From: Cetorhinus maximus
Taxonomy: Eukaryota
Assembly (NCBI RefSeq): GCF_964194155.1
Contig: NC_135892.1
Location: 84,940,001 to 85,004,000, forward strand
Direction: 5' to 3'
DNA: 64,000 nt
Made by a program: the position numbers and the translations under genes. Positions within the stretch are counted from its first letter, which is position 1, and each line of letters begins with the position of its first letter. Under the pieces are notes generated by a model. It saw only the letters and a program-made list of their open reading frames with translations, had not been told where the DNA came from and did not search any database. Positions 7,626-54,292 of the stretch are shown one piece after another.

Positions 7626-9177
7626 CAGGTATCTCCCGTTTAAAGCGTGTTCTAATGAGACATTTCGTTTTAGCGTGGTTTGTAAATTAACAATGCTCCC
7701 CAAAAATCGCTGCCTCCATTTTCATTTTAGCATGCTCAACCTTTGAAAACTAACTACCACTTCCCTCCCCAGCCCTCCCACCACCCTCCTGCTTACCACC
7801 TCCCTCCCTGACCCTCCTCACCGCCTCCTCCCCTCGACCCTCACACTCACCGCCACCCTCCTGCTTACCACCTCCCTCCCTGACCCTCCTCACCACCTCC
7901 TCCCCTCGACCCTCCCGCTCACCACCACCCTCCTGCTTACCACATCCCTCCCCGACCCTCCTCACCGCCTCCTCCCCTCGACCCTCACACTCACCGCCAC
8001 CCTGCTGCTTACCACCTCCCTCCCCGACCCTCCTCACCACCTCCTCCCCTCAGCCCTCCTGCTCACCGCCACCCTCCTGCTTACCACCTCCCTCCCCGAC
8101 CCTCCTCACCGCCTCCTCCCCTCAGCCCTCCCACTCACCGCCACCCTCCTGCTCACCACCTCCCTTCCTGACCCTCCCACTCACCGCCTACCCCCCGATC
8201 CTCCTGCTTACCACCTTCCCTCGATCCTCCTGCTCACCACCTCCCTCCCCGACCCTCCTGCTCACCGCCTCCTCCCCTCAGCCCTCCCACTCAGCGCCAC
8301 CCTCCTGCTCACCACCTCCCTTCCCGACCCTCCTGCTCACCTCCTTCCCTCGATCCTCCTGCTCACCGCCTCCCTCCCCGACCCTTCTCCTCACCGCCTC
8401 CCTCCCCGGCCCTCCTGCTCACTGCCTCCTCCCCTCAACCTTCCCACTCACCGCCTCCCCCGCCATCTCTCCTCCTCACCGCCTCCCCCCGATCCCCCCC
8501 CACTCACCGCCTCCCCCCGACCTTCCCACTCACTGCCTTCCTCCCCGACCCTCTTGTTTGCCACCTTCCTCCACAACCCTCCCGCTCTCTGCTTCCCTCC
8601 CTTACGGTACAATCTGCGCTTTTCACCACCCACCTTGCTCCCTCCCTCCAACCCACTCCCAGCTCCTCTCTCTCCCTCATTTGCTTCCTCCCTTTCGCTG
8701 CCCCTGTCCCGAGCCCTGGCTCACATAAAGTGTTCCGGAGAGCGAAGCGGTGAGCAGGAGAGGGAAGTGGCAAGCGGGAATGTTGGGTAGGGAAGCAGTG
8801 AGCGGGAGAGTCAACAAGCAAGAGAGGCGCTGATCGGGAGGATTGTTAGAGTTGGTGAACGGAAGGGTTGGTAAGGTCGGCGAGCGGGAGCATGGGGGGT
8901 GGGAAGTGGAGAGTGGGAGGGGCGGCTAACAAGGGAGGTAGCGAGCTGGGGGCAATTAAAAAGAGCTGGTAAGTTATTAAGAGTTCTTAAGTTATTAAAA
9001 GTTAGTAAGAAGATCTCTGGGCCAGTTAGGTTCAAGGCAGCCAATAGATTTTTAATGTAAAAATCACAGGTCAGGTACGTAACCCATCCTTATGGTTTCT
9101 TATGGGAAAGCGATTTTTGTTTAGCAGGCTGATTTTTTTTTAGAAATGCACAAGGAGTTCTAACAAGAGACAGTTGC
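7626..9177. mobile_element. Tigger/pogo-like non-autonomous DNA element inserted at a TA inside the SINE
   Basis: Begins TA|CAGGTATCTCCCGTTT; degenerate inverted end ...AACAAGAGACAGTTG|CA; cleanly interrupts the SINE at AAATA^GTGC. Confidence 0.55.
7765..8560. repeat. C-rich minisatellite, ~72-bp unit decaying to ~24-bp subunits
   Basis: Repeated CCTCCTGCTTACCACCTCCCTCCCCGACCCTCCTCACCGCC...; 24-aa periodicity in the minus-strand ORF 7750-8040. Confidence 0.9.
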
Positions 9178-15582: not shown

Positions 15583-15956
15583 GGGGAGACTGTAGCGTAA
15601 TGGTAATGTCACTGGATTAGCAATCCAGAGGCCCAGACTAACTGCTCTGGGGTTATGGGTTCAAACCTGGTGGAATTTAAATTCAATTAATAAATCTGGA
15701 ATTGAAAGCTAATCTCTGTAATGGTGACCATGAAATGATCATTGATGGTTGTTAAAAAAAAAGACCCATCTGGTTCACTACGTCCTTTAGGGAAGGAAAT
15801 CTGCCATCCTTTCCTGACCTGGCCTACATGTGACTCCAGACCCACAGCAATGAGGTTGATGCTGAAATGGCCTAGTCAATCAGTTCAAGGGGATAGGGAA
15901 TAAATGGTGGCCTTCGCAGTGATGCCCACATCCCATGAAAGAATAAAGAAAATAAA
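15583..15956 (+). mobile_element. HE1 SINE
   Basis: GGGGAG..TAGCGTAATGGTAATGTCACTGGA tRNA head, CCCATCTGGTTCACTA..GTCCTTTAGGGAAGGAAATCTG core, HER1-type tail GATGCCCACATCCCATGAA. Confidence 0.9.
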
Positions 15957-23279: not shown

Positions 23280-23491
23280 GATTTGAAGTGGTGGTGAGCA
23301 GAGCCTGTAGTGAGTTTATAAGCTGAGCTGTTACAGTGATCAAATCGAAACACCCTTCACTCCAGGTGGGCTGAATAATGATAAGGCTGTAGAATGTTCA
23401 TTGGTTGTTCTAAATAAGTAAAAGCAGTGCACCTGATTAACTGTTCTGACACATTCCACAGCCTAAAGGTTAAGCAATGCCAATTTTCAAA

Positions 23492-23634
23492 CTCTTTCGA
23501 GTTATCAACAGTCACAGATTGCAACTCTTTCGAGTACAATCACAGTTCTTGGTTTTCCGGGAGTGGGACATGAACCCACAACCCTCTGATTCAAAGGCAA
23601 GGGTGCTATGAACTGAGCCACAGCTGACACCTCT
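23492..23634 (-). mobile_element. Short tRNA-derived SINE, copy A, with 15-bp TSD
   Basis: A-box TGGCTCAGTTCA and B-box GGTTCATGTCC on the minus strand; ATGCCAATTTTCAAA at 23477-23491 and 23635-23649. Confidence 0.9.
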
Positions 23635-25290
23635 ATGCCAATTTTCAAAGTGCACTGAAGTTACACACATAACAAATTGCATTTGCTAAATCAATGGATC
23701 CCTGAATATAGTGAACCACCATTTTTGGTTCAGCAAACATAGCTGAGAAAACACTGCTTCATCTCACTCCGATGTCTTTAACGGAAGAAAAAAGAATTCA
23801 GTTACTTACGCTGCAGCAATTTTTTTATAGTTATGAAGGAGTAGGGAAGGAGTGAGGCTGACAATTCCAAATTATCTCACTAGAACACCCTTCTTCCACT
23901 TCTGTATCGCAGCAGCTCCATCAACCCCACACCCACCCCTCCATGCAGCAGCATATCCCCTAACATCATTAACAATGCCACAGGAGATCTGCTAAAAGAT
24001 GTATAAAATGGTACATTCAGCGTTTGTTATATCCATCACATCTGACATGTGTGTGAAAGTTTATTTTGCGCTGCAGTCAAAAGTATACAAAACTAATCAT
24101 TTACCATGTACAAAGAAGAAGAAAGCACTGGTATTGACACAGGAATCAGAGGAGACCCAATAGCACTTGTTGTGGTCCAGCCAGATTTGACGATAGATGA
24201 CTACACTTGATACGCATCACTTGCACAAAATTGGCTAAAGTTTCATGTTCATAAAGCAGCAATAACTCAAATCCGAAGTGGTAGGGGAACTTGTAAATTA
24301 AAAATAAGGAAAACTTGAGCTCAAAGTTGTCAATGAGTAAGTAGCAGAAAACTAAACGATTGCTCAATCCTTTTGAGGTTTCTAACCCCAAACTGCTGGG
24401 TCATTAGAAACAAAAAATCTGCCCCACAAGCCATGGTTTGAGCTGAAGTCTTGTATTCTGAAGTATGTTTGGTGTCTTATGCAAAGAGGTGTTTTCTGCA
24501 AGGTAACTTGCAGACACTTTGTTGGGATAAAGATGCTGTAGGCAGTTTTGGTTGTGAATAGAGAAATGCAATTTCTTCTGATGGGAAGTCAGGGCAGATG
24601 ATTTATCAATTTAAAATTCACAGTAAGTACAAGGATTAGAAACAATTTCATTAGAGGGTTGGAGTATGGAATCCTTTGCCAAAGTGAATGATTGATGCAG
24701 AGACCATTGCACCTTTTAAAGGGAAATTGGATAAATATTCAAAGAAGATGATGATATGAGGGTTATTGTGGGGGGGGGGGGGGAGATCATGGGCTATGCA
24801 ACACGGGCAGGTAAATGGAGTGAAGGTTAATTGGCCAGTCAGCGTGAAATCGTGGTCCGGAGCCAATCGCAGTCGGTGGTCCATTTCATGGCCACTCTCA
24901 CACCCGCCAAAGATAAGATTCAGGCCTATAAAATATTATTTATTACATGGTATAATGCTCCTGTTTAATGTAGCACATTTGGCAACATTCTCTTACAATG
25001 CCTGGAAAGATTTGCTAGTCCTAATTTTAGATGGGAAAAAAGGAGTACATTCACTTGGCTTAATTATTCCTGACTATTTTCATGATTCATTGGAATTGGA
25101 AATTTGAAGCAGCAACGAGAGATCAGGTCGTCTTTTTTGGTGGGGGGGGGCGGGATGGATGGAGAGGAGCAGCAAAGTCACTCTTTACGTAGAAAAGGTA
25201 GTGACAATGCACTAATCAGTACCTCACACTCAAAATTTAAACAAAGCCATAATTGGCTGAATGGAAGAAGCATTATTTTTATAATGCAAA

Positions 25291-29873: not shown

Positions 29874-31085
29874 TCATTGCATCTCGTCATCATCCTCCAT
29901 GAATCTTGCGGCTATGAGGGCCTCCCGAGTGCACCTGCCTCGTCTGGCAGTCTCATTGACGACATCAACTTCATTACCATCATCCCCTTCAATGGCCTGC
30001 TCATTGGAGGAGATGTGCAGCTCTTCCATCTCCTCCTTAGCCAGGTACTCTCCCCTGTTGCAGAGCCAGGTTGTGGAGTGTGCAGCAAGCAATGATGATG
30101 CACAACACCCTCGGTGGATTGTATTGCAGTGCTACACTGGACCTGTCAAAGCATCAGAACTTCCTGTTCAAAATGCCTATTGTTTGCTCCACCAAAGTGC
30201 AGGTCATGACATGAGCCTCGTTATACCTTCGCTCTGCTGCGTCCGAGGCCACCATACAGGCTTCATCAGCTCTATCCCCTACCCTTGTCCCCGAGGAGCC
30301 AACCCTGCAGCCTCTCTGGACCCTGGAAGACATCAGGGATCTGAGACCTGTTAAGGATGTAGGAGTTGTGAACACTCCCTGGGAATCTTGCGCAGACCTG
30401 TAGAATGCGTTTATGGTGGTCACACGCCAGCTGAACATTCAGCGAGTGGAAGCCCTTGTGGTTGACATGGTTGACTGCTTGTTGCCATGGAGATCTAAGT
30501 GCCATGTAAGTGCAGTCAATGGCACCCTGCACCTGTGGAAAACCAGAGATCCGCGCAAATCCCAACGCTCTTGCTTCCTGGTTTTCCTGATCCTGGGCAA
30601 AAATGCACGAAGTTCTGTGCATTCGCAAAGATGGCATCTGTGACCTCCTGGATACACTTGTGGGTGGAGGCTTGCGAGATCCTGCACAGGTCACTTGTGG
30701 AGCCCTGGAAGGAGCCATTGGCCTAAAAATTGAGTGCCATAGTCACTTTCATGGCCACTGGCAGAGGATGCCCTCCATGACCCCGTGGCGCCAAATCCTG
30801 AAGCAGGTGGCATATGTGACCGTCCAGTTCCCTAGACATGCGTGGTCTTTGGCAACACTGGTTCTCGGTCATCTGCAGAAATGACAAGCACCGTCTATAG
30901 ATCCTGGTGGTGTTCCTACGAGCGGCGACTCTCTGTGAATCTTCAGTTGCGTGCTCAGCAGGCCCTGCCACCCCTCTATCTTGAGGGAAGTGCCCCTCCC
31001 TTTGCCGAGTCTGGCACCTCCACCACATTCTTCTTTTCTTGTCTCTGTAAGCCATGAGGCTTACCGCTAAATCACCAGGCTCCAT
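29874..31085 (-). pseudogene. Harbinger DDE transposase (HARBI1-like), frameshifted
   Basis: MEPGDLA start; motifs GFPQVQGAIDCT, KGFHSLNVQLACD, ARFPGSVHNS, WLLGDKG, YNEAH..T..LVEQTIGIL; acidic C-terminus ...FMEDDDEMQ*. Confidence 0.92.
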
Positions 31086-31103
31086 GATCCTGATGCTCTC
31101 CTC

Positions 31104-31992
31104 CTGCAGGATGAAAGAGAGCGACACGCGGGTTAGCATTCGTGTCCTAAGAACTCTCTTGGTTAAGCCTGGAGGCCACTACACGTATGCAGGAGAGTGC
31201 TGGCCATCATTTGGATGGCCAGTGTGTACTGTGCTGATTGGCTGCCTGAAACCCTACCCACCTCCGTCCCGCTCCACTGGACCAATTGGCAGCAGCTTCA
31301 GCCACTGGACTGTAAGATGTGCTCTCAGCTCGGGTGCAGGCATTCTCCTATCCCGCATTGCAAGCCTGTGCTGTAAGCCTGAACCATTAGGGATACTGGT
31401 CCAAACCTGAATAAAGACATTGCAATGGTCTGTGAACACCTCCACCAGTGACTGCGCCATGGCCTCCTTTCGCAAGGGGATTCTACAACTTGCCCAGTCG
31501 GCCAATTGTTCTGCTGCCCCCTAAAATGTACATTAATCTGCAGTCTGCACCTGAGGGTTAAAGGATCTGGAGCAGTTGGTGGCACTTTCATGCTTTTGCG
31601 TTGCTTGAGTGGACAGAAAAGCATCAAAGGCCTGACTCCAAGCATGTCACTGGAACTGCAGCTGAACAGTCTCAGCTGCGGAAGAATGCTCACTTTCGAC
31701 AAGCTTTTCCAAGTGTGTGGCCACTTCCCTCCCTCTCCCCCAAACCCTTTCCCCACCACCACCCCGCCCCCAGCATGTGCTTGTGTACTTCCGTCAGCCT
31801 GTGCTGCCTTGTCCCCCACCTGCACCCCTCGCCCCAGCCTGACCCACACTGAAGCCCTTGCCCCGGCAATAAATTGATATCCAGCCAGCAAAAAGCAGGT
31901 TGTCTGTACCAGCGCCTCCCTCGCCTGAACGTGCTTCCTCGATGCCCTACGGGCGAGGCTTGTGAGCACTGCGCAGGTTTGTGTGCACTCAC
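31104..31992 (-). other. Predicted 5'-UTR intron of the transposase gene
   Basis: Donor GAG|GTGAGT at 31993/31992 about 40 nt downstream of a TTTAAAA box; branch point GCTAAC plus pyrimidine tract and CAG acceptor at 31104, conserved in the second copy (53094). Confidence 0.65.
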
Positions 31993-32454
31993 CTCCAAGC
32001 TGCCCTCAAAATTCAGCTCGCCAGGTGCATGCCTTTTAAAGGCAGTCGTGAAGCACACTGTTTTGAAGTCATGCCAACGTAGAGGTAAATTTGACATGGG
32101 GAGTAATTCTGGCGAGCAGGGCTTATAGTGAGATGCTAAAGTATTGAAATTAGGTACCACTTGTGCGGCGGTGGGATACATGACCCGCTAATGGCGGGTG
32201 GAGCAGACAATTGAAAACTGGTTTCACAACGACATAAATGGTTTTTTGGCCTTCTCGCCATATTTTCCCTTTCCCCGTCCGCCATGACACCCAACGCCAA
32301 CGGGACTGGACGATTCCACCCAGAGTGTGGACAAATTGGAGTGGTGTTAAATTTGATGTGGGAACTTGCTGCCTTGAGGATCAAGTTGCTTTCCATACTT
32401 TCTCAAGGACTGTTGCTATAGAAACCTGGGGTTTCATATGAAGATGGATTTTTC

Positions 32455-36987: not shown

Positions 36988-38636
36988 CTAGTCATGGACA
37001 GAAGCAAAGTACAAATACAACAAGACTCAAGCAGATGTACTTGGCTAAATTCTGATCTGCCCATTATTTTTGCTATACATACATAGGAAGGAAACAGAAA
37101 TCTCTTTCAGCTAACTGCATTAGAAATTATACCTAAAATAACTCATAACCTACTGAGCATACACATAAAAGATTAAAATGCTAGGTCCTTGAATTTAAAA
37201 CAGCAGATCTGATATATATATGCCCCATGTATAATCTGCACTTGCATATCGTATTTATTTCCCCCGCTCTAAAAATTGCCACTTTTACAGTAGTCATATT
37301 CTGCACACCCTCTTTTTGAAACGTGCATTGTAAGTTAACAAATATTTATTAATCTTTTTCAAACATTACAAAAGATGCTTTAAGTGTTGCTATATGTTAG
37401 CTATACTGTGACAAATGAAGCATTACAATCCTAAGATTAAATAAGAAACATTTAAGCAACATTAAGTCCAAGGTACTGTTGTACAATGACAAGCTCACTC
37501 ATTCATGCCAAAGCTGAGGAATTCTTCAAAGTTGTTGCAATAACTGATCATCACAGGAGTTATACTGCAGATGAAAACACTGATTCATCTCTGTGATATG
37601 CCTTTGCATTTTGACGGTGTTGATTGCTTTTTGCACAAGCCAGCAGCTTATTTCCCAATCTACCCACTTTTCTTTGGATTACATTGAGTCTATCTTCTGG
37701 AAGGACATATGAGCGATTTGTCCTGCCATTCTGATCCCATTTCTTGAATTTGTTCATGTTAAACTTACAAATGGTTGATTTGATCCCTTCTGAGGAGCCT
37801 CTACCACTTTCATTGCTAATTACAGCCATTTCTCCTGATGCATTAGGAATAATGGTTCCTCTGAACTATTTTCATTCACATTATATTTTCGATCTATTTT
37901 CCAGTAAAACACATTCACCTTGCAGCTTCCCATGTGTATTCACTCCATGTTGCAGGAGATACATTACATGTAAGTGCCTGTTGTATACAATATATTGTAA
38001 AAATATTCACACGCAAACCCGATATTTGCAAAACTGAGAAAATCTGTGCCAGGAATATCTGGCAGTCAAAGTCAAGCTGATCCACAGCACAATGAACCGA
38101 TTGCCCAAGTTTGCAAATTCAGCTTATTTCTATAATTAGCACAAATTCCCAGCACAGCTTTAGTTGGAAGTTAGGTTAGCCGGAGGTGCGCAAAATGTCT
38201 AGTTCAAATTTAAAGGGAAGTGCCCATTTAGCAAGTTACATTTTTGAAACACCATGAAGAACACTGGCAAAATAAATAAGTTCTATACTTAACTCTTTAG
38301 TGTTTTGCAGTGGCATGCTTATAATGCTTGCACAACCATTTACCTTCAACCAGCTATGTCCTCACTTTAAATGCTTTCTTCACTAATACAAAGCAATTTA
38401 CATTTGTGCACGAAAACACCTTTCACCTCCCCCAGAAAGCTTTCAACACTGTTGTGCAGGACCATTGAGGATGCACGCAGTATATTTCTGCAGTCTTGTT
38501 TTGAGAAACATTGTGGTCTTTTGTTGTGAAGGGAAGGTGATAAACATTTGTTTGCTTTCAAAAAGAGGCTGCCTGGCACTTGAAGCTAGCTCGTTAATGT
38601 TCAGTCTATAAAGCTGTAACTTGAGGTAATGATAAA

Positions 38637-38779
38637 GGGAGGTGTCAGCTGTGGCTCAGTTCATAGCACCCTCGCCTTTGAATCAGAGGGTTGTGGGTTC
38701 ATGTCCCACTCCCAGAAACCAAGAACTGTGATTGTACTCGAAAGAGTTGCAATCTGTGACTGTTGATAACTGGAAAGAG
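38637..38779 (+). mobile_element. Short tRNA-derived SINE, copy B
   Basis: Near-identical to the revcomp of 23492-23634; flanked by TTGAGGTAATGATAA. Confidence 0.9.
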
Positions 38780-38794
38780 TTGAGGTAATGATAA

Positions 38795-38941
38795 GGGGAG
38801 GTGTCAGCTGTGGCTCAGTCCATAGCACCCTCGCCTTTGAATCAGAGGGTTGCAGGTTCATGTCCCACTCCTGGAAAAACCAAGAACTGTGATTGTGCTC
38901 AAAAGAGTTGCAATCTGTGACTGTTGATAACTCGAAAGAGT
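38795..38941 (+). mobile_element. Short tRNA-derived SINE, copy C (tandem with B)
   Basis: Second unit, again flanked by TTGAGGTAATGATAA (38780-38794, 38942-38956). Confidence 0.9.
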
Positions 38942-39002
38942 TTGAGGTAATGATAAATGTGGAAATTATAGTGTCATTGCTCCTACATTTGTTGCCAACA
39001 AT

Positions 39003-39309
39003 GGGGAGGTGGTGGAATAGTGGTTTTATCACCAGATGAGTGTTTCAGAGACCCAAGGTAATACCCTGAGGACCTGGGTTCAAATCCCACCATGGCAGAT
39101 TAATAAAAATCTGGAATTAAAAGTCTGATGATGACCATGAAACCATTGCTGATTGTCATAAAAACCCATCTGGTTCATTAATGTCCTTGAGGAAATCTAC
39201 CATCCTTACCTGGTCTAGCCTACATGTGACTCCAGAACAAGAGCAATTGGGGATGGGCAATAGATGCTAGCCTAGCCAGTGATGCCCACATCTAATGACT
39301 AAAAAAAAA
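39003..39309 (+). mobile_element. HE1 SINE with 13-bp TSD
   Basis: HE1 head, core and tail; ACATTTGTTGCCA at 38985-38997 and 39311-39323. Confidence 0.9.
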
Positions 39310-51965: not shown

Positions 51966-53075
51966 CCTCACCACTGTCATCTCTTCAACGTCCTCCTCAT
52001 CAGGGGAGACGTGCAGGTCTTCCACCTTCTCCTCAGCCAGGTCCTCCCCCCATTGCAGTGCCAGGTTGTGAAGTGCGCATCAAGCAATGATGATGCACGA
52101 CACCCTCGTGTGTTGTATTGCAGTGCTCCTCAGGACCTATTGAGGTACTGAAGCCTCATTTTCAAAATGCCTATCGTTTGCTCCACCAAAGTCTGGGTCA
52201 CAGCAAGAGCCTCATTGTACCGTGGCTCTAATGAAGTTTGAGGCCACCACACAGGTGTCATCAGCCACATCCTCTCTGGGTAGCTCTTGTCCCTGAAGAG
52301 CCAACCCTGCAGACTCTCTGGACCCTGGAAGATGTCAGGGATCTGAGACCTGCTAAGAATGTTGGAGTTGTGAACCATGTGCAGACCTGTAGAATGCGTT
52401 TGTGGTGGTCGCACACTAGCTGAATATTCAGCGAGTGAAAGCCCTGGTGGTTGACATAGTCGACTGCTTGTTGCCACAACAATCAAAGTGCCACATGAGT
52501 CCACTGGATGACACCCTGCAACTGAGATCTGCGCAAATCCCAGCGCTCTTGCTTCCTGGTTTTCCTGTTCCCGGGCGAAATGCACAAAGCTCTGTGCATT
52601 CGCGAAGACAGTGTCCGTGACCTCCTGGGTACACTTGTGCATGAAGGCTTGCGAGATCCCACACAGGTCACCTGTGGAGCCCTGGAAGGAGCCACTAGCA
52701 TAAAAATTGAGCCCCACGGTCACTTTCATGGCCACTGGCAGTGGATGCCCGCCATGTCCCTGTGATGCCAAATCCTGCAGCAGGTGGCATATGTGACTGA
52801 CCATTTCCCTCAACATGAGCAGTTTTCGGAGACCCTGGTTCTCGGTCATCTGCAGGAATGACAGGCTCAGTCTATAGACCCTGGGTCTAGCAATGCGCCT
52901 ACGAGTGATGGCTCTCTGTGGATCTTCAGCTGCCTGCTCAACAGGCCCTGTCACCCCTTCAGCTTGAAGGCTGGTGCTCCTCCCTTTGCCAAGCCTGGCG
53001 CCTCCACCGCTCTCTCCTCCTTCTTTTGGGCTCTTTGTAAGCCATGAGGCATGCCGCTAAATCACCAAGCTCCAT
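51966..53075 (-). pseudogene. Harbinger DDE transposase (HARBI1-like), second copy
   Basis: ORF 52130-52954: GGHPLPVAMKVTVGLNFYASGSFQ..GDLCGISQ...WLFRDKSYP..WLMTP...YNEAL..T..LVEQTIGILKMR. Confidence 0.9.
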
Positions 53076-54292
53076 ATTCGTGATGTTCTCCTCCTGCAGG
53101 ATCAAAGAGAGAGACACCTGGGTTAGCATGGGTGTGCTAAAATCTCTCTCAGTGAAGTCCGAAGGCCCATTTCATGCATGTAGGATGTGCTGGCCACCAC
53201 TTGGATGGCCAGTGTGTAGTGCGCTCATTGGCTGTCCGAAACCCCACCCACCTCTGCCCCACTCCACTTAATCGATTGGCGGCAGCTTCGGCCATTGGAC
53301 TGCATGTTGTGCTCACAGCTCAGGAGCAAGTGCTCTCCTAACCCCCACTGCAAGGCTGCGCTGTTACCTTGAACCATGAAGGATCCTGGTCCAAATCTTA
53401 ATAAAGACATTGCAAGGGGCTGTGAGCGCCTCTGCCAGTGACTGTGCCATGGCCACCTTTCACAAGGGGATTCTACAACTTGCCCAGTCGGCCAATTGTT
53501 CTGCTGCCCCCTAAAACGCACATTAATTTTCAGTCTGCGTCTGAGGGGTGAAAAGTTCTGGAACATTTGGTGGCACTTTCATGCTTTTGGGTTGCTTGAG
53601 TGGGCAGAAAAGCTCCAGAGGCCCGATTCCAAGCATACCAATGGAGCTGCTGCTGAGTGGTCTCAACTGCGGAAAAATGCTCACTTTCGACAGGCTTTTC
53701 CAAGTGCGTTGCTACTTCTTTCACCCCCCCACCAGCCCACCCCACTTCCCGCACACCTTTCCCCTTACCACCCCAGTTTGTGCTTGAGTATTTCCACCTC
53801 GCCGCGGTCTGACCCAGCTCCTTGCCCTGGCATCGCACTGAATGCCAGCCGGGAAAAAGCGACTTGCCTGTGCGAATGACTGACGCTGCCTCCTTGATGT
53901 CCCATGGGCGATGCTCGCCAGTGCTTTGCAAGGTTGAGTGCACTCGCTTCCGGGGTCCCCTCGAAGTTCAGGCTGCCAGGTGCACATCTTTTACAGGCGG
54001 TCGTGAAACACGTCGTTCTGAAGTCACGCCAAATTTGGCGATAAATTTGCCGTGGGGGGCATGATTCCGGTGAGCAGGGCTTATAATGAGATGCAAACGT
54101 ATTAGAATGACGTTCCCGACGTATGGCAGCAGGAAATGTGGCCCACCATTGTCAGTTGGAGCGGATGATCGCAAACTGGCTTCACAACGGCGTAAAAGCG
54201 ATTTTTGGCCTTCTCGTCATATTGTGTTCCCCACCCCCCCAACCCTGCCCCACCACCCGCCATGACGCCAATGGGACCGGAAAATTCCAGCC
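51966..54292 (-). mobile_element. Harbinger element, truncated (transposase side only)
   Basis: Collinear with 29960-32321; right TIR GGAAAATTCCAGCC followed by TAA. Confidence 0.92.

What the first reader, a model, noticed from the sequence alone, without database searches (positions are those of the whole stretch)
38621..38957. TSD-SINE-TSD-SINE-TSD array: one 15-bp target flanks and separates two SINE copies
Seen: TTGAGGTAATGATAA occurs three times (38621, 38780, 38942), separated by two complete ~145-bp SINE units that differ from each other at several positions. Inference: either the retrotransposition machinery re-inserted at exactly the same site, implying target specificity or serial/rolling integration, or the unit was duplicated by unequal crossover between TSDs and then diverged. 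The direct repeats are host target sequence, because the solo copy at 23492 has a different TSD.
Basis: partly seen in the sequence, partly recalled or inferred. Interest (0 to 1): 0.72.

Follow-up and report, generated by a model that had tools for sequence, protein, structure and literature searches.

The report
Retrotransposons stacking on their earlier copies
Two different copies of a short jumping element sit at exactly the same spot, as about one in seven copies of this family do, likely because the inserting enzyme re-cuts the old site and joins the new copy by pairing it with the copy already there.

Summary
The array is real: target repeat, unit B, repeat, unit C, repeat. It is not a one-off: 1,443 of 10,136 exact SINE tails in the genome are followed by a head after 8-24 nt. 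B and C share no derived base and are not sisters, so simple duplication fails. Yet in 38 of 51 arrays the 5' junction (repeat length plus untemplated bases) is identical between units (chance 0.06). The partner is a Tx1-clade LINE that stacks too. In its stacks the left copy keeps the right copy's 5' truncation, can be identical to it for 284-789 nt, and is then younger in type (closer to a young copy in 13 of 14). So new copies likely enter at the left repeat, later in time, and are joined by annealing to the resident. This is well supported for the LINE and inferred for this SINE locus. Stacks separated by target repeats are known (R1, SINEU-3). The copied junction, and stacking at weak unique sites (9 of 69 loci; 0.03-0.35% expected), were not found in eight literature searches. 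The scan noted what is probably this family before on other DNA (e1-9561442).

The parts
38610..38620 (+). Host flank upstream of the first-strand nick; weak match to the family target motif (about GTnCAcC|TTCA)
   Evidence: Motif from 115 non-hotspot loci, 7.1 bits; this site scores 2.0 bits against a mean of 6.8
38621..38636 (+). Left target-site duplication, 16 bp
   Evidence: Sequence
38637..38638 (+). Untemplated GG at the 5' junction of unit B
   Evidence: Absent from the right flank; GG is the extra in 2 of 71 single insertions
38639..38779 (+). SINE unit B, 'Y' subfamily; 2 differences from the subfamily majority; likely the later insertion
   Evidence: order inferred from the LINE stacks
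38780..38797 (+). Middle spacer: target repeat (15 bp) plus GGG; same length as the left junction (18 nt), one A/G difference
38798..38941 (+). SINE unit C, 'Y' subfamily; 6 substitutions and a longer A-run; likely the resident, earlier copy
   Evidence: carries the T>C marker at position 23 that is found at 17 other sampled loci
38942..38957 (+). Right target-site duplication, 16 bp
   Evidence: Sequence
23477..23649 (-). Solo copy A of the same SINE with its own 15-bp target-site duplication
   Evidence: site scores 8.9 bits

Best explanation
The array is two separately copied SINE RNAs at one nick: the Tx1 LINE enzyme likely re-cut the left target repeat of an existing insertion and likely joined the new cDNA by annealing its end to the head of the resident copy, which would copy the resident's 5' junction. 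Step 1 (inferred from TPRT): the first copy, C, is inserted with a 16-bp duplication and untemplated Gs. Step 2 (supported by LINE stacks, inferred for this locus): the left repeat keeps its original upstream flank and is nicked again later. Step 3 (shown by sequence): a different RNA supplies the new 3' end and body. Step 4 (inferred from chimeric copies): the cDNA end pairs with homologous resident sequence just downstream of the nick, so repeat, extra bases and the resident's 5' part up to the crossover are duplicated. Step 5 (inferred, untested): such pairing rescues a joining step that usually fails, which would explain frequent stacking at weak sites.
For: Different templates: B and C share no derived allele. 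Six source markers are concordant in 8 and discordant in 47 cases among 62 adjacent Y-Y pairs. 36 of 123 adjacent pairs, in 22 of 63 arrays, mix subfamilies. Copied junction: same length in 43 of 51 arrays (chance 0.16), same repeat length plus extra bases in 38 of 51 (chance 0.06), identical in 15 of 25 arrays that have extra bases. LINE stacks: 13 of 40 loci taken in genome order hold neighbours with the same 5' truncation. The left copy is closer to a young reference in 13 of 14 leftmost pairs, 1 tie (sign test p 0.0002). In L258, L263, L265, L267 and L273 it is identical to the right copy for 284-789 nt and then switches. A LINE placed left of a resident SINE is capped by a SINE or by a copy of the resident block in 18 of 23 loci, against 1 of 30 without a resident SINE (unselected loci only: 4 of 7). 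Copied blocks match the first resident units with no mismatch for 155-370 nt. The A-rich 'S' subfamily, the most diverged one, is rightmost in 9 of 10 mixed arrays (p 0.004). Sharing of derived alleles with the right neighbour is 16-19% over positions 1-120 and falls to background (2 of 41) in the tail. Print: R1 inserts into the 5' repeat of resident copies (PMC2718515, passages); cDNA pairing with target DNA is the favoured priming route for R2 (PMC13580325, passages).
Against: SINE arrays show no significant age gradient: leftmost 2.17 against rightmost 2.49 differences, p 0.54 (41 arrays); on columns not fixed by the search patterns 1.56 against 1.98, p 0.19, and p 0.10 at non-hotspot sites. 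Overall subfamily order was 74 'older right' to 65 'older left' (rough typing). LINE stacks are mostly in one hotspot (19 of 25 against 1 of 13), while SINE arrays are common at unique sites, so another route may act there. In L260 the third LINE copy is younger than the second; L243, L241 and L257 show no clear crossover. The LINE reference was one copy. B and C share no 5' variant, so a crossover in this locus must lie in the first 22 nt and cannot be seen; the two junctions differ at one base. Five of 175 junctions have no spacer, so several RNAs are sometimes copied in one event. All 40 sampled copies of this LINE subfamily are followed by TTA, nearly all TTAC, whereas this site starts TTG, so a sister Tx1 may be the partner here.
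Confidence: 0.7

Rival explanations
1. Reloading in one event: after the first cDNA jumps onto the top strand and copies the target repeat, its end equals the original primer, and the bound enzyme primes a second RNA without a new cut.
For: Needs no second hit, so it explains stacking at weak sites (9 of 69 against 0.03-0.35%), the equal site scores of arrays and singles, the copied junction and the lack of a significant age gradient in SINE arrays. Template jumps occur: spacer-less joins and SINE-capped LINEs. A jump onto target DNA is a published model (PMC2912911, passages). Earlier scan note e1-9561442 raised it.
Against: In LINE stacks the right copy is 2-4% more diverged than the left one beyond a sharp crossover, which points to elapsed time. 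The rare, most diverged S subfamily is rightmost in 9 of 10 mixed arrays, 5 of them outside the hotspot. All SINE gradients point the same way, older on the right.
Confidence: 0.18
2. Independent second hits on a strongly preferred target, each with its own 5' joining (classic R1 or P-element double insertion).
For: 25 of 40 LINE copies lie in one site of a Harbinger-like repeat and 19 of these are stacked. Some junctions differ within arrays (13 of 51); in L260 the cut fell 10 nt inside the resident SINE.
Against: Junction identity 38 of 51 against 0.06 by chance. Arrays are not at stronger sites and this site is weak. LINE neighbours share truncation points.
Confidence: 0.04
3. Local duplication by unequal crossover or slippage between the two target repeats, followed by divergence or gene conversion.
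For: Explains the copied junction. Secondary duplication is real in long arrays: identical units in L020 and L181, repeated blocks in L243, L253 and L278; 6 of 75 adjacent Y pairs fall in clades of at most 4 tips.
Against: B and C are further apart (8) than 94% of random pairs. Source markers are discordant 47 to 8. Subfamilies are mixed. Conversion would not favour the left copy 13 to 0, nor run from a crossover to the 3' end.
Confidence: 0.05
4. Assembly artefact, or insertion of a ready-made dimer transcript from another locus.
For: Read-through dimers exist: 39 of 175 spacers were classed as foreign (some wrongly), and the spacer of L033 matches the target repeat of L034.
Against: Here the spacer equals the local flank repeat. 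B and C differ at 8 sites plus indels, unlike a mis-assembled copy. Contigs of two runs match both outer junctions exactly, with B's head base on the left and C's tail on the right (one sample, possibly the assembly's source).
Confidence: 0.03

Closest known systems
SINEU-3 and Tx1-Mar of crocodilians (Kojima 2015, PMC4494074; section 14 read, other passages seen)
   Same: SINE ascribed to a Tx1 partner, preference for a site in a DNA transposon, tandem copies 'sandwiching a TSD' ascribed to sequential insertion. The paper also reports Tx1-9_AMi in Harbinger transposons.
   Different: Head here is tRNA-like, not U1/U2. The SINE shares a 3' hairpin with its LINE. Most SINE stacks in the unselected sample (9 of 11) are at unique sites. 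The passages seen report no copied junction or chimeric left copy; supplements were not opened.
R1 tandem arrays in Drosophila 28S rDNA (Stage and Eickbush 2009, PMC2718515; passages)
   Same: Copies separated by the 14-bp duplication; new copies go into the duplication at the 5' end of the resident; annealing of cDNA to target DNA gives precise 5' junctions.
   Different: R1 has one strict target. There the annealing partner is rDNA carried on the transcript; here it is the resident element itself.
TE dimers by double insertion (McGurk and Barbash, 10.1101/158386; passages; supplements closed)
   Same: Target duplication inside the junction; dimers seed longer arrays.
   Different: P-element dimers form at stronger-than-average sites and jockey dimers have distinct 5' truncations; here sites are average and LINE neighbours share truncations.
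R2 5' joining by cDNA pairing or a 4-way junction (PMC6895275, PMC13580325; passages)
   Same: Homology between the cDNA end and target DNA directs second-strand priming.
   Different: Shown for a restriction-like-endonuclease element with rDNA homology upstream of the nick; here an APE element with homology downstream of the nick, which duplicates 20 to several hundred bases.
Chimeras of new L1 cDNA with resident L1 in cultured cells (Gilbert and colleagues; recalled, paper not held)
   Same: New cDNA recombines with a nearby homologous copy.
   Different: Recalled as occasional and mostly deleting or converting; here it appears to be the usual outcome beside a resident copy and builds stacks. 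Not checked against the text.
Dip SINE multimers of jerboa (cited in PMC10702118; passage)
   Same: A large share of SINE copies in tandems of up to eight.
   Different: The passage says nothing on target repeats or mechanism; the primary paper was not seen.

Membership tests
tRNA-derived SINE | Short, non-coding, interspersed, high copy | tested here: met
   141-144 nt; 10,434 exact heads on both strands
tRNA-derived SINE | Flanked by variable target-site duplications | tested here: met
   71 of 88 single copies
tRNA-derived SINE | tRNA-like head with A and B boxes | tested here: inconclusive
   Box-like motifs by eye (consensus recalled) and a 5-bp stem with 7-nt loop in B, but no tRNA call from Rfam or ARAGORN
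tRNA-derived SINE | 3' end shared with a partner LINE | tested here: met
   Both end in ACTC-RAAA-GAGTT and share target repeats in mixed arrays; the match is only about 13-16 nt
tRNA-derived SINE | Transcribed by RNA polymerase III | not testable with these tools
   Indirect: many read-through pieces end at T-runs
Tx1-clade LINE (partner) | ORF2 with APE endonuclease, RT and C-terminal zinc motif; ORF1 with CCHC knuckle | tested here: met
   PF03372 4e-10, PF00078 1e-39; zf-RVT and zf-CCHC below curated cut-off; 1,303-aa open frame
Tx1-clade LINE (partner) | Closest named full-length relative is a Tx1 | tested here: met
   50% identity over 100% of the query to Xenopus Tx1 ORF2 (P0004)
Tx1-clade LINE (partner) | Placement inside Tx1 by RT phylogeny | not tested
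   No tree with named Tx1 families was built
Tx1-clade LINE (partner) | Target preference for a multicopy sequence | tested here: met
   25 of 40 copies in one site of a repeat that encodes a DDE_Tnp_4 protein
Double-insertion tandem (R1, SINEU-3 type) | Spacer is the local target duplication | tested here: met
   This locus; 131 of 175 spacers
Double-insertion tandem (R1, SINEU-3 type) | Units derive from different templates | tested here: met
Double-insertion tandem (R1, SINEU-3 type) | New copy enters the 5' duplication, later in time | tested here: inconclusive
   Met for LINE stacks (13 of 14) and the S subfamily (9 of 10); not significant for SINE arrays overall
Double-insertion tandem (R1, SINEU-3 type) | Confined to strict or strong target sites | tested here: not met
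   Array and single sites score alike; this site is weak; 9 of 69 non-hotspot loci are stacked
Double-insertion tandem (R1, SINEU-3 type) | Each copy has its own 5' junction or truncation | tested here: not met
   38 of 51 SINE junctions identical; 13 of 40 LINE loci with shared truncation
SINEU | U1- or U2-derived head | tested here: not met
   No snRNA match in Rfam at E up to 10
Local tandem duplication | Neighbouring units are sisters and share source markers | tested here: not met
   holds only for some inner units of long arrays
Retrozyme or rolling-circle multimer | Ribozyme motif; units joined without host target sequence | tested here: not met
   No ribozyme match; spacer is host target DNA

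The most novel reading that the evidence does not exclude
A resident copy is a landing pad. Joining the 5' end is the step at which most insertion attempts by this Tx1 enzyme fail, and a homologous copy next to the nick rescues it about 100-fold, even at weak unique sites. The genome then holds over a thousand natural records of second-strand priming by homology in an APE-type LINE, with effective target duplications of 20 to 600 bp, and LINEs can even borrow a SINE RNA to gain that homology.
Probability: 0.4. Interest if true: 0.75.

Novelty: new variant of a known kind. Interest (0 to 1): 0.55.

Why it matters
How the second strand and the 5' junction of a LINE insertion are made is still debated. 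Here stacks keep crossover points between old and new copies, which makes homology-guided joining countable in natural data and testable with an intact 1,303-aa ORF2 and a 141-nt substrate. It also shows a route from dispersed SINEs to tandem arrays, and warns that shared 5' truncations or junctions do not prove duplication, and that such SINE loci are not homoplasy-free markers.

Tried and rejected
Read support for the middle junction: contigs of X17 and X20 and reads of X21 and X15 gave no cover at 38785-38792 at 99% likeness. The tool filters records and one mismatch would exclude a short contig, so this is no evidence either way. No listed piece spanned the array at 88% either. Rfam and ARAGORN did not name the head's parent tRNA. 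Mean distance of neighbours against random pairs (4.45 and 4.05) has little power in a star-like family, so markers were used instead. Age gradients in SINE arrays were not significant. Odd-one-out mutations in the repeats were even between left and right (7 and 7, several rows mis-aligned). Tethering to other polymerase III genes: an A-box-like motif (recalled consensus) 10-45 nt downstream was seen at 1 of 179 loci, so no support. The idea that LINEs are always SINE-capped was rejected by the control (1 of 30). PMC13343379 has no Tx1 or tandem passage. PMC390292 and PMC1190285 were not held. A genome-wide count of LINE-tail/SINE-head junctions was not obtained; sampled loci stand in for it.

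Full report
Observation. The sequence shows a 16-bp repeat (38621-38636), GG, unit B (38639-38779), a 15-bp repeat (38780-38794), GGG, unit C (38798-38941) and a 16-bp repeat (38942-38957). A solo copy on the minus strand has its own 15-bp repeat. The genome is 3.99 Gb; 'shark' comes from earlier scan notes and from my recall of neighbouring repeats, not from a test.

Frequency. Exact patterns give 10,434 heads, 10,136 tails and 1,443 tail-N8-24-head junctions (14%, control 0). Among 79 loci taken from the first 100 heads of contig 1, 63 were single, 11 were arrays with the local repeat as spacer and 5 had foreign spacers only. Outside the hotspot it was 9 of 69 (95% interval 6-23%). In all 88 sampled arrays, most of them picked by the junction pattern, 131 of 175 spacers were local, 39 foreign (some mis-parsed) and 5 absent.

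Not sisters. I aligned 331 units, leaving out those outside 100-165 nt and truncated first units, and dropped L099, L102 and L181-1 from most statistics as partial duplicates of neighbours. Four subfamilies differ in the tail (Y, N, M and the one-hairpin S). B differs from the Y majority at 2 sites and C at 6 plus an A-run; none is shared. B carries a C>G change seen at 7 other loci and C a T>C change seen at 17. Their distance of 8 is reached by 6% of random pairs; in a FastTree tree their common ancestor holds 87 of 195 tips, with weak support throughout. Six markers were concordant 8 times and discordant 47 times in 62 adjacent Y-Y pairs, and 22 of 63 arrays mix subfamilies. Some inner units are true duplicates (6 of 75 pairs).

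Copied 5' junction. Single insertions vary in repeat length and extra bases: two singles agree in length with probability 0.16 and in length plus extras with 0.06. In arrays the left junction and the first spacer agree in 43 and 38 of 51; where extras exist they are identical in 15 of 25. In this locus both junctions are 18 nt and differ at one base; GG extras occur in 2 of 71 singles. The 3' junction differs between B and C (one T), as in 11 of 63 arrays.

Target strength does not explain it. The motif from 115 non-hotspot sites holds 7.1 bits. Leave-one-out scores are 6.89 for 42 arrays and 6.75 for 64 singles (p 0.97); this site scores 2.0. About 1.4e7 effective sites give 0.03-0.35% repeat hits for 1e4-1e5 insertions. 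This assumes independent positions and ignores chromatin.

The partner. Upstream of some arrays lies a LINE that ends in the same ACTC-RAAA-GAGTT hairpin and uses the same repeats. L221 holds a 1,303-aa ORF2 with endonuclease and RT domains, 50% identical over its length to Xenopus Tx1 ORF2. Copies are about 99% alike; 651 exact 3' ends exist. Of 40 loci taken in genome order from that list, 25 lie in one site of a repeat with a DDE_Tnp_4 frame; 19 of these are stacked, against 1 of 13 unique sites (my count; 2 loci lie in another target).

Mechanism from LINE stacks. Thirteen of the 40 loci have neighbouring LINE copies with the same 5' truncation. Against one young reference copy, the left member has fewer private differences in 13 of 14 leftmost pairs (one tie; p 0.0002). 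In five loci the left copy is identical to the right one for 284-789 nt, sharing its non-reference bases, and then turns young in type. L243, L241 and L257 show no clear switch, and in L260 copy 3 is younger than copy 2. Where a SINE is the resident, the new LINE is capped by a SINE transcript with foreign 3' flank or by a copy of the first resident units in 18 of 23 loci (14 of 15, selected by a LINE-plus-SINE query; 4 of 7; L031 is direct), against 1 of 30 loci without a resident SINE. The copied blocks show no mismatch for 155-370 nt before a switch. The simplest reading is a later nick at the left repeat, new cDNA from the 3' end, and joining by annealing to the resident.

Transfer to the SINE array. 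It has the same signature: copied junction, new body, and C, on the right, more decayed than B. The S subfamily is rightmost in 9 of 10 mixed arrays. Allele sharing with the right neighbour is 7 of 39, 13 of 71, 11 of 59, 12 of 76 and 2 of 41 along the unit, against 3-9% for type-matched random pairs. But age gradients over 41 SINE arrays are not significant, so reloading in one event stays open for unique sites. Why weak sites are hit again so often is unexplained; rescue of a failing joining step is my inference.

Known work. Tandems that sandwich a target duplication are described for SINEU-3 with Tx1-Mar (PMC4494074, section 14 and passages), R1 (PMC2718515, passages) and Drosophila TE dimers (10.1101/158386, passages). 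Joining by cDNA pairing is described for R1 and R2 (PMC2718515, PMC6895275, PMC13580325, passages) and a jump onto target DNA for L1 (PMC2912911, passages). L1 chimeras with resident copies are recalled only. Eight searches (listings seen) showed no report of stacks whose new copy inherits the resident's junction or truncation, nor of this SINE. Repbase entries, supplements and subscription papers were not seen and may hold it.

Verdict. Real, family-wide, a new variant of a known kind. Interest 0.55.

Noticed in passing
L092:1101-1215 (minus strand): A 5S rRNA-like sequence (recognised from recall, not tested) is fused without spacer to the head of the leftmost unit of a three-unit array; possibly a template jump onto 5S RNA.
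   Followed up: partly
L033 and L034 (contig 1, 1.2 Mb apart): The spacer of the L033 dimer matches the target repeat of array L034, so arrays may act as sources of read-through dimers.
   Followed up: partly
L221:1833-5744: Intact 1,303-aa Tx1 ORF2 with part of ORF1; sampled copies about 99% alike, so the family is young and may be active.
   Followed up: partly
L255 and L105 left flank: A second kind of 3' end (…GGCTTTAAAAGAAG) occurs in the same arrays and may mark a sister Tx1 family.
   Followed up: no
L031, L058, L091 and others: The hotspot lies in a repeat with a DDE_Tnp_4 frame, Harbinger-like; 25 of 40 LINE copies sit at one base of it. Several LINE ends in the list recur at about 7-kb spacing.
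   Followed up: partly
window 38731-38779: The SINE tail holds two GAAA-loop hairpins; the second seems to have been added by capture of a target piece plus another tail, since the S subfamily has only one.
   Followed up: partly
window 39004-39309: An older, very abundant SINE starts 47 nt after the right repeat; relatives at 15878 and 51819.
   Followed up: no
window 30114-32247 and 52108-54205: Two copies of a repeat of about 2 kb, 71-85% alike.
   Followed up: no
window 7781-8601: C-rich minisatellite with 72-, 47- and 28-bp periods.
   Followed up: no
window 15587-15679: ARAGORN calls a tRNA-Ala(agc), probably a SINE head.
   Followed up: no
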